This document shows, piece after piece, positions 1 through 4,179 of a DNA stretch of 4,179 bases; the stretch's first letter is position 1, and every line of letters starts with the position of its first letter. This DNA is from Naegleria gruberi (lineage: Eukaryota): NCBI GenBank assembly GCA_000004985.1, contig GG739193.1. One strand, written 5' to 3'. The notes beneath the pieces are model-generated. The model saw only the letters and a list, made by a program, of their open reading frames with translations. It ran no database searches and was not told where the DNA came from. The position numbers and the translations under genes were made by a program.

Positions 1-419
1 TTGATTATTATTCATATTTATATAATGTTATATTATTAACATTAGTAGTACAATAATAGTGAAAAGTGTTGTTAATGGGTTATAATACTCAATTAATTAT
101 ATATTAAGGAAAAGTTGAGAATACTCGAATATTTAAACTATATATATTTGACTCGTAAAAAGTATATACTCTTTTATATATATTATTATAAAATGATGAT
201 ATTAATATACTTACAAATATATTTATAATTATTATTCCTAATAAAAATTACAATATATTAATAGTATTTATTTAAAGATAAATATGAGAATGACGCAATA
301 ATATTCAATCTATCAATAATTGAATGATATTAATGCAATAGTAGTAGTGTTCTGTGATGGATGGGATCTTTTTTTAATGTAATTGTGTAAATAAAAGCTT
401 CACAATAATATGAGAGAGA

Positions 420-640
420 GCCATCTCTCCTCATTTAGACATTGAATAACCATGTTGATTTTCATGCTCGTAATGGAGGCGTATTGGAAAAAGTGCCCCC
501 TATGTGAGAGTTCCTCAATACTACCAATGAAGAGTTCTCACTCAAGACACATCATCACCACCCAAACACACTCTCTCTCATTCAAACGCTCCACATTTGA
601 AATTGTGTGCTCAATGATGTGAACAAAAGGAGAGATAATA
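420..640. other. C-rich, GC-rich compositional island of unknown nature. It could be a ncRNA gene, a relic of a mobile element or foreign DNA, or a small ORF.
   Basis: My manual count over 481..580 gives 44/100 G+C, split as 31 C and 13 G on the + strand. The flank at 181..280 gives 9/100. The island holds pyrimidine tracts (ctctctctc at 571..579, caccaccc) and the gagagagag/ctctc pair at 412..429. It also has an internal direct repeat, agagttcctca (507..517) and agagttctcac (531..541), and a 6-bp inverted pair, gtgaga 504..509 with tctcac 536..541. Confidence 0.5.
452..622 (+). CDS. Speculative 56-codon small ORF inside the GC-rich island, encoding MLIFMLVMEAYWKKCPLCESSSILPMKSSHSRHIITTQTHSLSFKRSTFEIVCSMM. 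It contains a CxxC motif.
   Basis: ATG 452 to TGA 620..622 is open. However the codons are G/C-ending (ctc, gcg, ccc, cac, atc, acc, cgc), unlike the large gene next to it. There is no A-run start context, and the ORF is short. It is more likely a chance ORF in a non-coding GC-rich element. Confidence 0.12.
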   Translation: MLIFMLVMEAYWKKCPLCESSSILPMKSSHSRHIITTQTHSLSFKRSTFEIVCSMM

Positions 641-690
641 TCATTAAAGGTTGATAATTTTATTAGGATAGTAAGGAAACCTAATAAGGG

Positions 691-1009: not shown

Positions 1010-1064
1010 AAATGTCAGTGATAGGAAATAAAATCAGTAATATTAAATTCCATCACTGACATTT
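1010..1064. repeat. Perfect 13-bp inverted repeat with a 4-bp inner extension, predicted to form a hairpin, immediately upstream of the start codon.
   Basis: aaatgtcagtgat (1010..1022) is the exact reverse complement of atcactgacattt (1052..1064). After a one-base bulge at a1023, ggaa (1024..1027) pairs with ttcc (1048..1051). The loop is about 20 nt. The stem is relatively GC-containing (gtcagtg) in about 90%-AT surroundings. It ends 12 nt before ATG 1077. Confidence 0.8.
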
Positions 1065-1076
1065 GACAATAAAAAA

Positions 1077-1769
1077 ATGTTTAATCTTCTTCGTAGACTT
1101 TCAAATGTAAATGAAGAAGCAATAGAATCAAATAGTAATTTAAATAATCCCATATCATCATCATCATCTAATACAAATACAAATAGTACTAGTTCATTAT
1201 CTAAAATATTACCACCATTAAAAGATTCAAAATTATTTTCATCTGATTTTAAACGTAATAATAATAAACAACAACAACATGAACATGAACAACAAATAAC
1301 ATCAGATGATTCATCAGATGAAGATGATGATATTATGAATAATTTACATTTGACACCTAAAAGTCAATCATTAACACAATCAAATCCACTTTCAACCACT
1401 TCATCTTTATTTACTTCTACTACACCTTCATCATCTGTTAATAATACATCATCATCATCTAAAAATCAATTTGGATCATGGTTATTAGCTACACCACGTA
1501 GAAGTCAATCTACCACTTCATCACCTATTATAAATAATTCAGTATCAAATCAATCATCATCATCAGTTGCATCAAATAATTATAATAATACTTCACCATT
1601 CAGAAGATTTTCAGTATTTTCAAGTAATCATCACAATAATAATAATAGTAGTGCATTTGGATTTTTAACGAGTAGGAGTAGTTTCTCCTATTCATCTCCT
1701 TCACCTTCATCAAGGAAAAAAATTCATCATCATCCTCCTCTACTACTACTAGTAATAATCATAATCATT
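1077..1769 (+). CDS. 5' part of a large low-complexity (Ser/Asn/Thr-rich) protein. The N-terminus is MFNLLRRLSNVNEEAIESNSNLNN. The CDS is partial because it runs into the N-run.
   Basis: The ATG at 1077 is the first ATG after an in-frame stop at 1044..1046. It sits in an a7-ATG-t context, the A-run Kozak-like motif typical of dictyostelid genes. The frame stays open for 231 codons in very AT-rich DNA, where random frames close within about 10 codons. Codon usage is dictyostelid-like (tca, aat, caa, tta, att, cca, ggt), and (tca)4-5, (caa)3 and (act)3 microsatellites encode S, Q and T runs. The reading frame of the last roughly 50 nt before the gap is uncertain; see the finding at 1682..1769. 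Confidence 0.6.
1155..1169 (+). repeat. (tca)4-tct trinucleotide repeat encoding SSSSS. It is the representative case; similar (tca)n runs occur at about 1446..1460 and 1553..1564, and (caa)3 occurs at 1269..1277.
   Basis: Direct reading. The repeat is in frame with the 1077 CDS. Confidence 0.85.
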
Positions 1770-2648
1770 NNNNNNNNNNNNNNNNNNNNNNNNNNNNNNN
1801 NNNNNNNNNNNNNNNNNNNNNNNNNNNNNNNNNNNNNNNNNNNNNNNNNNNNNNNNNNNNNNNNNNNNNNNNNNNNNNNNNNNNNNNNNNNNNNNNNNNN
1901 NNNNNNNNNNNNNNNNNNNNNNNNNNNNNNNNNNNNNNNNNNNNNNNNNNNNNNNNNNNNNNNNNNNNNNNNNNNNNNNNNNNNNNNNNNNNNNNNNNNN
2001 NNNNNNNNNNNNNNNNNNNNNNNNNNNNNNNNNNNNNNNNNNNNNNNNNNNNNNNNNNNNNNNNNNNNNNNNNNNNNNNNNNNNNNNNNNNNNNNNNNNN
2101 NNNNNNNNNNNNNNNNNNNNNNNNNNNNNNNNNNNNNNNNNNNNNNNNNNNNNNNNNNNNNNNNNNNNNNNNNNNNNNNNNNNNNNNNNNNNNNNNNNNN
2201 NNNNNNNNNNNNNNNNNNNNNNNNNNNNNNNNNNNNNNNNNNNNNNNNNNNNNNNNNNNNNNNNNNNNNNNNNNNNNNNNNNNNNNNNNNNNNNNNNNNN
2301 NNNNNNNNNNNNNNNNNNNNNNNNNNNNNNNNNNNNNNNNNNNNNNNNNNNNNNNNNNNNNNNNNNNNNNNNNNNNNNNNNNNNNNNNNNNNNNNNNNNN
2401 NNNNNNNNNNNNNNNNNNNNNNNNNNNNNNNNNNNNNNNNNNNNNNNNNNNNNNNNNNNNNNNNNNNNNNNNNNNNNNNNNNNNNNNNNNNNNNNNNNNN
2501 NNNNNNNNNNNNNNNNNNNNNNNNNNNNNNNNNNNNNNNNNNNNNNNNNNNNNNNNNNNNNNNNNNNNNNNNNNNNNNNNNNNNNNNNNNNNNNNNNNNN
2601 NNNNNNNNNNNNNNNNNNNNNNNNNNNNNNNNNNNNNNNNNNNNNNNN
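1770..2648. other. Run of 879 N, either an assembly gap or a hard-masked segment. Sequence is unknown, so no feature can be called inside it.
   Basis: Direct observation of n characters. The left flank enters the run through trinucleotide microsatellites (cat/cct/act/aat). That is consistent with an unassembled low-complexity coding repeat, but this is inference. Confidence 0.95.
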
Positions 2649-2649
2649 T

Positions 2650-4179
2650 GAACATTATTTTGATTTTAAATTAATTATAAATATTGTACAATATTTTAGA
2701 AGTTTACAATTTAAAAATATTTTAGAAATTAATTTTAATATTAATCATATTTTAAATTCAAATTTACAAAATAATTTTTTATTTAATGGATTATCAATTT
2801 CATATTGGTTATATATTTTTACTTTTATAGATATTTCTAATTTTAGTAATTATAAAACAATTAGTGAATCATGTAAATATTTTAATATTATTTTAAAACA
2901 TCCATTTTTATTATTTCAATTTTTAATTCATTTTATTCCAATTCAACATTTAGAAACAAATTCAATTTTATTATTTCAACAATTTAAATTTTTTAATTTA
3001 AAATTTAATTATGAACATTTTTGTTTATCTTTAATTTTAGATAAATTTAGTCAATTTACAAATTTAGATTTTTTAAATAATCAATTATCTATACTTGCTA
3101 ATTTAAATCATATTCCAACAAATCATCATTCTTTATTTCATCATTTTAAAAATAAAAATGAATTAGATTTATCACCTTCTATAAATGGTAATAATAATAA
3201 TTTAAATAATAATTCAAATAATAATTTAAATAATAATAATGGTAGTAGTAGTAGTAGTGGAGGTAATACACCCAATACACCCAATACACCAAGAGGTAAT
3301 TTAACACCACGTGGTAAATCATCAACTCCTAATACTCCTAATACTCCGAATGAAAATATTGATGAAATTTTTAAACAACAAGAAGAATTAAATTCATCTT
3401 TTAATTCTAATCATAATTCTAATAGTCATTCTAATAATAATTCTAATAATTCTAATAATAATGATAATAGTAAAACATCTATAGATATATATAAATACAT
3501 TTATAGAAATATTAAAAATAGAATTCATTTAATTGATAATGAATATCAAAATGTTAATGATTTTATTAAATTAAAATATAGTATTGGTGATAGAGATAGA
3601 TTAATACAAAAAACAATTTTAAATTTATTAAATGAAGAATTATCATTAAAATTTTATCATTTCCAAAAAAAGAAATTAACAAATTATAGAAAAAATGAAT
3701 TAAGTAATTTATTTGGAATTTATTATAATAGAAAATGTGAATTTTATTTTATTACATTTGGTCAATATATATTTTCAATTCATTGGAAGAATTTTGAAAT
3801 TTATTTAACTAAAATTAATAATAATATTTCCATATATAGTACTTGTACACATTTTGATCATTTTGAAAATTTTAAACATAATTCATTAAATAATATTAAA
3901 AATATTAATTTAGAAGGTAATTGGACAGCATGTTTAAAATATTATAGTAATAATTATGATTCCTTTTTTGAAACTAAATATTTTTTAAAAATTAAAAAAA
4001 TTGATTTACATTATCATGCAGATATTGATACTATAAATTTAGAAAATGATGATGAAAATAATGAATTTAATTTATTAAATATTTCACATGAATCAATGGA
4101 TTTAGATCATTTAATTTCCAATTATGGAAAAGTAAAAATGGAAATTGCATTAAAAAATACACCTAAAAATAGAAATAGT
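2650..4179 (+). CDS. Continuation of the same protein-coding gene, most likely the downstream part of the 1077 gene. It is partial at both ends and runs off the window. It contains an Asn/Ser low-complexity linker with a Thr-Pro repeat cluster, then a non-repetitive C-terminal region.
   Basis: The frame with codon starts at 2650, 2653 and so on is open for all 510 codons from the gap edge to the window end. The other two + frames hit stops at 2661 and 2672. This stretch is 64-87% AT by my manual counts of 100-120-nt segments. Across that range a stop-free run of 510 codons happens by chance with negligible probability. The first in-frame ATG is at 4096, so no start codon exists for 482 codons and translation must begin upstream, in the gap or at 1077. 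Codon usage is dictyostelid-like. The ORF track omits it because there is no stop inside the window. Confidence 0.65.
3244..3258 (+). repeat. (agt)5 microsatellite encoding SSSSS within G-SSSSS-GG.
   Basis: Direct reading. The codons 3241 ggt, 3244 agt and following are in the open downstream frame. Confidence 0.85.
3265..3291 (+). repeat. Tandem 9-nt repeat, three copies (aatacaccc, aatacaccc, aatacacca), encoding NTP-NTP-NTP.
   Basis: Direct reading. The three units are in frame. Confidence 0.85.
3322..3348 (+). repeat. Second imperfect tandem 9-nt repeat (tcaactcct, aatactcct, aatactccg), encoding STP-NTP-NTP with different codons from the first block.
   Basis: Direct reading. Thr is act here versus aca upstream, and Pro is cct/ccg versus ccc/cca. 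Confidence 0.75.

What the first reader, a model, noticed from the sequence alone, without database searches (positions are those of the whole stretch)
1077..4179. One large gene is split by the N-run, and its downstream 510-codon half is missing from the ORF track
After the gap, only the frame starting at 2650 is open, and it stays open to the last base of the window. That makes 510 codons with no stop in 64-87% AT DNA, by my manual segment counts. The other two frames stop within 8 codons of the gap edge. The frame has no stop in the window, which is presumably why the track omits it. It has no in-frame Met codon until 4096, 482 codons in, so it cannot be an independent gene starting after the gap. 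The simplest reading is a single gene of more than 740 codons plus whatever lies in the gap. It starts at the well-supported ATG 1077 and continues beyond 4179. The frame offset across the gap is uninformative if the 879-nt length is only an estimate. If the length is exact and intron-free, the frames do not match, because the matching upstream frame has stops at 1750..1758.
Basis: partly seen in the sequence, partly recalled or inferred. Interest (0 to 1): 0.55.

Follow-up and report, generated by a model that had tools for sequence, protein, structure and literature searches.

The report
Gene interrupted by an assembly gap
A run of unknown bases in this very AT-rich, social-amoeba-like sequence most likely cuts one ordinary protein-coding gene in two; the stretch after the gap is real coding sequence, but that both halves belong to one gene remains likely rather than shown.

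Summary
The N-run is 1770..2648 (879 nt). The frame from 2650 has 510 codons and no stop up to 4179, in DNA that is 83.9% AT. The chance of that is about 6e-25, and no shuffle gave more than 107 open codons. Its first Met codon is at 4096.

It is real coding sequence. Its first 122 residues are 40% identical to the only relative found among 1.84 billion proteins, a 160-aa metagenomic protein. That similarity begins at the first codon after the gap, so the gene starts upstream of 2650.

The link to ATG 1077 is circumstantial:
- Both ORFs are on the same strand and open to the gap.
- The relative's contig has coding-like sequence upstream of the shared region, and probably a Ser/Thr/Asn-rich ORF in the same frame.
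- A weak motif match has shuffle p of about 0.02.
- A rough length model gives prior odds of 4-40:1.

No protein in the databases covers both halves. A second gene starting inside the gap is not excluded.

New detail: the last 46 nt before the gap fit another frame, probably through a 1-nt error in the A7 run at 1715-1721. The listed 524-aa ORF 1077..2651 is an artefact of translating N as X.

This is an ordinary assembly and annotation matter of low interest.

The parts
1044..1046 (+). In-frame TAA, 11 codons upstream of ATG 1077. It bounds the N-terminal ORF at its 5' end.
   Evidence: Sequence; six-frame translation.
1077..1721 (+). N-terminal coding region in phase 0. It starts at ATG 1077 in an A-rich context and encodes a Ser/Thr/Asn-rich low-complexity protein of 215 codons.
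   Evidence: No stops. Codon-usage log-likelihood favours phase 0 in every 15-codon window from 1077 to 1706: +5.8 to +18.7 bits, against -5.6 to -48 for the other phases. No Pfam hit and no homologue.
1715..1721 (+). A7 homopolymer. This is the probable site of a 1-nt deletion (a sequence error at the contig end) that shifts the reading frame.
   Evidence: The best-scoring frame switches from phase 0 to phase 2 here. Phase 2 has stops up to 1679, so the switch lies between 1682 and 1724. This is the only homopolymer run in that interval. The error itself is inferred.
1724..1769 (+). Last 46 nt before the gap. They read best in phase 2 as SSSSSSTTTSNNHNH, so coding continues up to the gap edge.
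   Evidence: Phase 2 scores +14.5 bits. Phase 0 (IHHHPPLLLLVIIIII) scores -27.8. Phase 1 scores -52.3 and has stops.
1770..2648 (.). Assembly gap of 879 N. The length is probably a scaffolding estimate.
   Evidence: Neither upstream phase (0 or 2) is in frame with 2650 across exactly 879 nt (arithmetic).
2650..3015 (+). Conserved region of 122 residues, the only part with a detectable relative. The core is L-S-I-SYWLYIF-T-FID ... TISESCKYF..IL.HPFLL.Q.L at about 2791-2925.
   Evidence: phmmer hit P0001 at E 4e-22. BLASTP gives 40% identity over residues 1-122, E 6e-32. Alignment. Codon usage is coding-like from the first window.
3016..3471 (+). Non-conserved stretch followed by a low-complexity linker with Asn-rich tracts and NTP/TP repeats, in the same open frame.
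   Evidence: Translation. Triplet, 9-nt and 12-nt tandem repeats at 3189-3473.
3472..4179 (+). C-terminal region of 236 residues, still open at the last base of the window. The gene continues beyond the window.
   Evidence: No stop. No Pfam hit. No homologue in the exhaustive search. The AlphaFold model has pLDDT 38.9 and is unusable.

Best explanation
This is one protein-coding gene of a very AT-rich, dictyostelid-like eukaryote, cut by an unsequenced stretch of the assembly.

The proposed gene layout:
- Translation starts at ATG 1077 and runs through a Ser/Thr/Asn-rich low-complexity N-terminal region.
- It crosses the gap, whose 879-nt length is an estimate.
- It resumes at 2650 in a conserved helical region of about 120 residues.
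- It continues through an Asn- and Thr-Pro-rich linker and a further region of about 240 residues.
- It leaves the window at 4179 without a stop. The gene therefore has more than 740 codons plus the gap.

The apparent frame mismatch across the gap has two trivial causes. The gap length is not exact. A 1-nt error in the A7 run at 1715-1721 also shifts the last 46 nt of the left contig.

Shown: the post-gap ORF is real coding sequence, it needs an upstream start, and coding continues to both gap edges. Inferred: both sides belong to one transcript.

The protein's role is unknown. The conserved core resembles an F-box by eye, which would make it a candidate SCF ubiquitin-ligase substrate adaptor. 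That idea was tested and is not established.
For: 1. The 510-codon open frame has P of about 6.5e-25, and no shuffle exceeded 107 codons.
2. There is no Met codon for 482 codons.
3. The only relative among 1.84 billion representative proteins, P0001, matches residues 1-122 at E 6e-32, starting at the first codon after the gap.
4. In its contig L001 the same frame stays open for 33 codons upstream of the ATG that the gene caller used. Codon usage there is coding-like (+5.9 to +6.3 bits, other frames negative), and AT content (71%) is no higher than in the coding part. So the conserved region is not an N-terminus.
5. L001 has a perfect 99-nt inverted repeat with one arm at the contig end, and similarity to the window stops at the other arm. 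If this is a fold-back artefact, an ORF of at least 187 aa, rich in Ser/Thr/Asn, lies directly upstream in the same frame. That is the arrangement seen in the window.
6. The window N-half motif FSVFS-SNHHNNN matches L001 FSLFTPRNHHTNN in the segment contiguous with the conserved region, with shuffle p = 0.02.
7. Coding-type codon usage runs to both gap edges.
8. A rough length model gives prior odds of 4-40:1 for one gene.
Against: No protein or contig links the two halves directly. The searches with the C-half, with the profile and with the N-half found nothing that covers both.

L001 carries an in-frame TGA at 71-73 between the Ser/Thr/Asn-rich ORF and the conserved region, and an ATG 14 codons before the equivalent of the gap edge. 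Read literally, that is two ORFs.

The N-half similarity is not significant under BLASTP (E 0.26) and only borderline under shuffling (p 0.02-0.1).

A D. discoideum-type intergenic region (mostly under 1 kb, PMC5006619) could fit in the gap. Assembly gaps may also be enriched in AT-rich intergenic DNA, which the prior model ignores.

The frames do not match across exactly 879 nt.
Confidence: 0.65

Rival explanations
1. There are two neighbouring genes on the same strand. A gene for a Ser/Thr/Asn-rich protein starts at 1077 and ends inside the gap. A second gene starts at an ATG inside the gap, at least about 15-40 codons before 2650, and carries the conserved region near its N-terminus.
For: In L001 an in-frame TGA (71-73) and an ATG (173-175) precede the conserved region. 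The gene caller made a 160-aa protein that starts 14 residues before the equivalent of the gap edge. Intergenic regions in D. discoideum are mostly under 1 kb, so one could fit in about 880 nt (PMC5006619). The two halves differ in composition, 72.7% against 83.9% AT. Neither half has a homologue that includes the other.
Against: The 33 codons between the TGA and the ATG in L001 are coding-like in the same frame and no more AT-rich than the coding part. The 99 nt between that stop and the ATG is very short for a terminator plus a promoter (inference). Both gap edges in the window are coding-like. A simple length model favours one gene by 4-40:1.
Confidence: 0.27
2. The two sides of the gap are not neighbours in the genome because of a scaffolding misjoin, or the locus is a decayed pseudogene. 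In either case the two ORFs are unrelated fragments.
For: The frames do not match across the stated gap length, and a frameshift lies 50 nt before the gap. The homologous contig also shows a lone in-frame stop. Neither half was found as an annotated protein in the databases searched.
Against: A stop-free run of 510 codons at 84% AT is not expected in a decayed gene. The frameshift sits in a homopolymer at a contig end, where read errors are common (general knowledge). The Ser/Thr/Asn-rich ORF next to the conserved region recurs in L001, which argues against a chance join.
Confidence: 0.06

Closest known systems
Gene models split or truncated by sequence gaps in draft eukaryotic assemblies (annotated as 'fragment' or partial genes)
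   Same: An N-run sits inside what reads as coding sequence on both sides. The downstream part has no start codon, and the frames do not match because the gap size is an estimate. ORF tools either drop the piece or read through the Ns.
   Different: Nothing differs in kind. The only unusual point is that no annotated protein for either half was found in the databases available here.
F-box proteins, the substrate adaptors of SCF ubiquitin ligases (Pfam F-box PF00646 and F-box-like PF12937)
   Same: The conserved core L-x-x-SYWLYIF-x-FID ... SCKYF-x-x-x-L-x-HPFLL has the spacing of the F-box consensus LPxELLxxIFSxL ... VCKxWxxL ... LW. hhalign places it in exactly that register. The region is predicted all-helical.
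   Different: No Pfam F-box model hits it even at E up to 10. The nearly invariant L-P and the final Trp are missing. The AlphaFold model is too poor (pLDDT 41) for a fold comparison.
Low-complexity, homopolymer-rich proteins typical of Dictyostelium (Asn, Gln, Ser and Thr tracts encoded by triplet repeats)
   Same: The N-half is Ser/Thr/Asn-rich. The linker at 3160-3471 carries Asn tracts and NTP repeats built from 3-, 9- and 12-nt tandem repeats. Codon choice (TCA, ACT, AAT, CAT, ATT, TTA, CAA) fits that group (and my own knowledge).
   Different: The species was not identified. The dictyostelid assignment rests on composition and codon usage only.

Membership tests
Single gene spanning the gap | One homologous protein or contig from elsewhere contains counterparts of both the N-half (1077-1769) and the C-half (2650-4179) | tested here: inconclusive
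   The C-half has one relative, P0001/L001, covering residues 1-122 only. The N-half has none. L001 upstream sequence resembles the N-half only weakly: BLASTP E 0.26, shuffle p 0.02-0.1.
Single gene spanning the gap | The downstream ORF has no possible start of its own, and coding continues upstream of the gap edge | tested here: met
   The first Met codon comes 482 codons in. Homology starts at codon 1 after the gap. In L001 the frame stays open and coding-like for 33 more codons upstream.
Single gene spanning the gap | The reading frame is continuous across the gap | not testable with these tools
   The gap sequence is unknown. The phases (0 or 2 upstream, 1 downstream) do not match across exactly 879 nt, but the gap length is probably an estimate.
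Single gene spanning the gap | One transcript covers both sides | not testable with these tools
   No transcript data are available. Exact-sequence scans of metagenome contigs found no spanning contig.
F-box domain proteins (PF00646 / PF12937) | Significant match to an F-box profile | tested here: not met
   hmmscan against Pfam-A at E up to 10 gave no F-box family for window 2650-3069, for 2770-2949 or for P0001. The whole C-half gave none at E up to 1.
F-box domain proteins (PF00646 / PF12937) | Profile-profile similarity in the F-box register | tested here: inconclusive
F-box domain proteins (PF00646 / PF12937) | Three-helix F-box fold | tested here: inconclusive
   The AlphaFold2 model has mean pLDDT 41.2 and pTM 0.25. 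Helices are predicted at residues 50-59, 62-67 and 71-83, but the model is unreliable, so no fold search was run.
F-box domain proteins (PF00646 / PF12937) | Binds Skp1 | not testable with these tools
   This needs an experiment.

The most novel reading that the evidence does not exclude
The conserved 120-residue region after the gap (core SYWLYIF.FID ... SCKYF ... HPFLL) defines an undescribed protein family restricted to social amoebae, possibly a very divergent F-box. No Pfam model covers it, and only one relative exists among 1.84 billion representative proteins.
Probability: 0.3. Interest if true: 0.2.

Novelty: new member of a known kind. Interest (0 to 1): 0.12.

Why it matters
It matters mainly for annotation. 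The listed 524-aa ORF 1077..2651 is an artefact. A real coding region of at least 510 codons is missed by an ORF listing that drops frames running off the window. The left contig probably carries a 1-nt homopolymer error just before the gap. If the one-gene reading is right, closing the gap would yield a protein of more than 740 residues from a lineage-restricted family. No new biological principle is at stake.

Tried and rejected
- Pfam scans of both halves and of sub-regions found nothing relevant. A profile search of Protein Data Bank sequences gave only a chance azurin match at E 0.47.
- The word-indexed protein search with the whole C-half found nothing. The candidate list may have been swamped by low-complexity words, so the exhaustive HMMER search was used instead and gave one hit.
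- A profile search with window plus homologue found only P0001 again.
- Two metagenome-contig scans, one with peptide patterns and one with 40 exact bases from the right gap edge, found nothing.
- The N-half search found nothing.
- An exact-product look-up of the 56-aa ORF 452..622, meant to find a gap-spanning contig, found nothing on record.
- Two AlphaFold2 runs gave pLDDT 41 and 39, so no fold search was justified.
- I looked by hand for an intron that would remove the in-frame TGA in L001. The only in-frame candidate is 43-117 (75 nt, donor GTGTTC, 68% AT). It does not look like a dictyostelid intron and was rejected.
- An intron donor as the cause of the frame switch at 1715-1769 was rejected: there is no GT at the switch, and phase 0 reads poorly before the GT at 1752.
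- Rfam and tRNA scans of the window found nothing above threshold.
- The D. discoideum genome paper was not held under the PMC id I tried, recalled from memory.

Full report
**1. The observation**

The window has one N-run, 1770..2648, of 879 nt. The frame starting at 2650 has 510 codons with no stop up to the last base, 4179. The other two forward frames have 125 and 41 stops. Their first stops are at 2649 and at 2672, the eighth codon of that frame. The three reverse frames have 36-68 stops.

The only in-frame Met codons are at 4096 and 4138, so the first comes 482 codons in. The region is 83.9% AT. From base composition, the chance that 510 codons stay open is about 6.5e-25. In 2000 shuffles the longest open frame never exceeded 107 codons.

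Upstream, ATG 1077 sits in an A-rich context 11 codons after an in-frame TAA, and it opens a 231-codon frame that reaches the gap. The frame that would match 2650 across exactly 879 nt has stops at 1750, 1753, 1756 and 1762.

The ORF listing omits the frame because it drops ORFs that run off the source. It reports instead a 524-aa ORF 1077..2651 and a 296-aa reverse ORF 1765..2655. Both are artefacts of translating N as X.

**2. Is the post-gap frame a real gene?**

Yes. Besides the statistics, codon usage favours this frame from the first 15-codon window.

An exhaustive HMMER search of 1.84 billion representative proteins found exactly one relative, P0001. It has 160 aa and comes from an ENA metagenome contig of 1225 nt (E 4e-22; cluster of one). 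BLASTP gives 40% identity over window residues 1-122 (E 6e-32), starting at the very first codon after the gap. The conserved core is L-[ST]-[IL]-SYWLYIF-[ST]-FID ... TIS-[EK]-SCKYF ... HPFLL-x-Q-x-L.

The rest of the ORF has no relative anywhere and no Pfam family. That rest consists of an Asn-rich linker with NTP repeats built from 3-, 9- and 12-nt tandem repeats and a final region of 236 residues.

**3. Does it join the ORF from 1077?**

Direct evidence is lacking. The results were:
- The N-half has no homologue.
- A profile of window plus P0001 finds only P0001.
- Two scans of metagenome contigs found nothing.

The indirect evidence comes from the homologue's contig, L001.

(a) Upstream of the ATG used by the gene caller (173), the same frame stays open for 33 codons. 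Codon usage there is coding-like (+5.9 to +6.3 bits, other frames negative). AT content is 71%, no higher than in the coding part. So the conserved region is not an N-terminus, and in the window the gene must extend well into the gap.

(b) L001 has a perfect 99-nt inverted repeat, 1-99 and 634-732, with one arm at the contig end. Similarity to the window stops within two or three codons of the second arm, whereas the window ORF runs on for about 390 more codons. The simplest reading is a fold-back assembly artefact. Undoing it places an ORF of at least 187 aa, rich in Ser/Thr/Asn, directly upstream of the conserved region and in the same frame. That mirrors the window.

(c) The window N-half motif FSVFS-SNHHNNN aligns with FSLFTPRNHHTNN in the L001 segment that is contiguous with the conserved region. 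The match is weak: shuffle p = 0.02 and BLASTP E 0.26.

(d) I ran a crude model with exponential gene lengths and spacer lengths (means 1750 nt and 800 nt, taken from my own knowledge of D. discoideum). It gives odds of 4-40:1 for one gene, depending on the true gap size. The model ignores any tendency of gaps to fall in AT-rich intergenic DNA.

Against the one-gene reading:
- L001 has a lone in-frame TGA (71-73) between the Ser/Thr/Asn-rich ORF and the conserved region, and no convincing intron removes it.
- Intergenic regions in D. discoideum are mostly below 1 kb (PMC5006619), so a stop, a spacer and a new ATG could fit inside the gap.

I put one gene at about 0.65, two genes at about 0.27, and a misjoin or pseudogene at about 0.06.

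**4. A new detail at the left gap edge**

Codon-usage scoring favours phase 0 in every window from 1077 to 1706. In the last 46 nt (1724-1769) the picture changes:

| Phase | Reading | Score (bits) |
|---|---|---|
| 2 | SSSSSSTTTSNNHNH | +14.5 |
| 0 | IHHHPPLLLLVIIIII | -27.8 |
| 1 | contains stops | -52.3 |

Phase 2 has stops up to 1679. The only homopolymer between there and 1724 is the A7 run at 1715-1721. Reading it as A8 restores ...SSRKKNSSSSSSTTTSNNHNH. A 1-nt homopolymer error at a contig end is the likely cause, though this is inferred.

With either phase, the frames do not match 2650 across exactly 879 nt.

**5. What the protein might do**

By eye, the conserved core has the spacing of an F-box. 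I tested the idea three ways:
- Pfam gives no F-box hit at E up to 10.
- The AlphaFold2 model is all-helical but unreliable, with pLDDT 41.

A model of the C-terminal region is equally poor, with pLDDT 39. I therefore do not file the protein as an F-box protein. A role as an SCF substrate adaptor is a lead only.

**6. Organism**

The dictyostelid assignment rests on composition, codon choice, the A-rich start context and the homopolymer tracts (my own knowledge). No database hit names the species.

**7. Verdict**

This is a real gene in an ordinary situation. The finding is a correct and careful reading of an assembly gap, not new biology. Interest is low.

Noticed in passing
window 1077-2651 (+) and 1765-2655 (-): The ORF listing reports a 524-aa and a 296-aa ORF that consist mostly of X. 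They arise from translating the N-run and ending at a chance TGA at 2649-2651, or starting at a chance ATG on the reverse strand (its reverse complement CAT at 2653-2655). Both are artefacts.
   Followed up: yes
window 1715-1769: The frame with coding-type codon usage switches from phase 0 to phase 2 after the A7 run at 1715-1721. A 1-nt homopolymer error at the contig end is probable.
   Followed up: yes
window 376-650: An island of 37-43% GC sits in flanks of 14-25% GC, about 430 nt upstream of ATG 1077. It holds a 56-aa forward ORF (452..622) and a reverse-strand frame broken by one TGA. There is no Pfam, Rfam or tRNA match, and RNA folding z-scores are -1.4 and -2.3. Its nature is unknown: it could be a non-coding RNA gene, a decayed exon or a mobile-element remnant.
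   Followed up: partly
L001 1-99 and 634-732; L001 71-73: The only homologous contig (ENA ERZ27237200, k141_585418) has a perfect 99-nt inverted repeat with one arm at the contig end, probably a fold-back assembly chimera. It also has a lone in-frame TGA between two coding-like stretches in the same frame.
   Followed up: partly
window 3265-3351: 9-nt tandem repeats encode NTPNTPNTPRGNLTPRGKSSTPNTPNTPN, a cluster of Thr-Pro motifs inside the Asn-rich linker. They might be proline-directed phosphorylation sites, but this is speculation.
   Followed up: no
window 1567-1636 (-): A sub-threshold Rfam match to the C/D-box snoRNA family SNORD110 scores 22.3 bits against a gathering score of 64, E 0.41. 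It lies inside the N-half coding region and is most likely chance.
   Followed up: no
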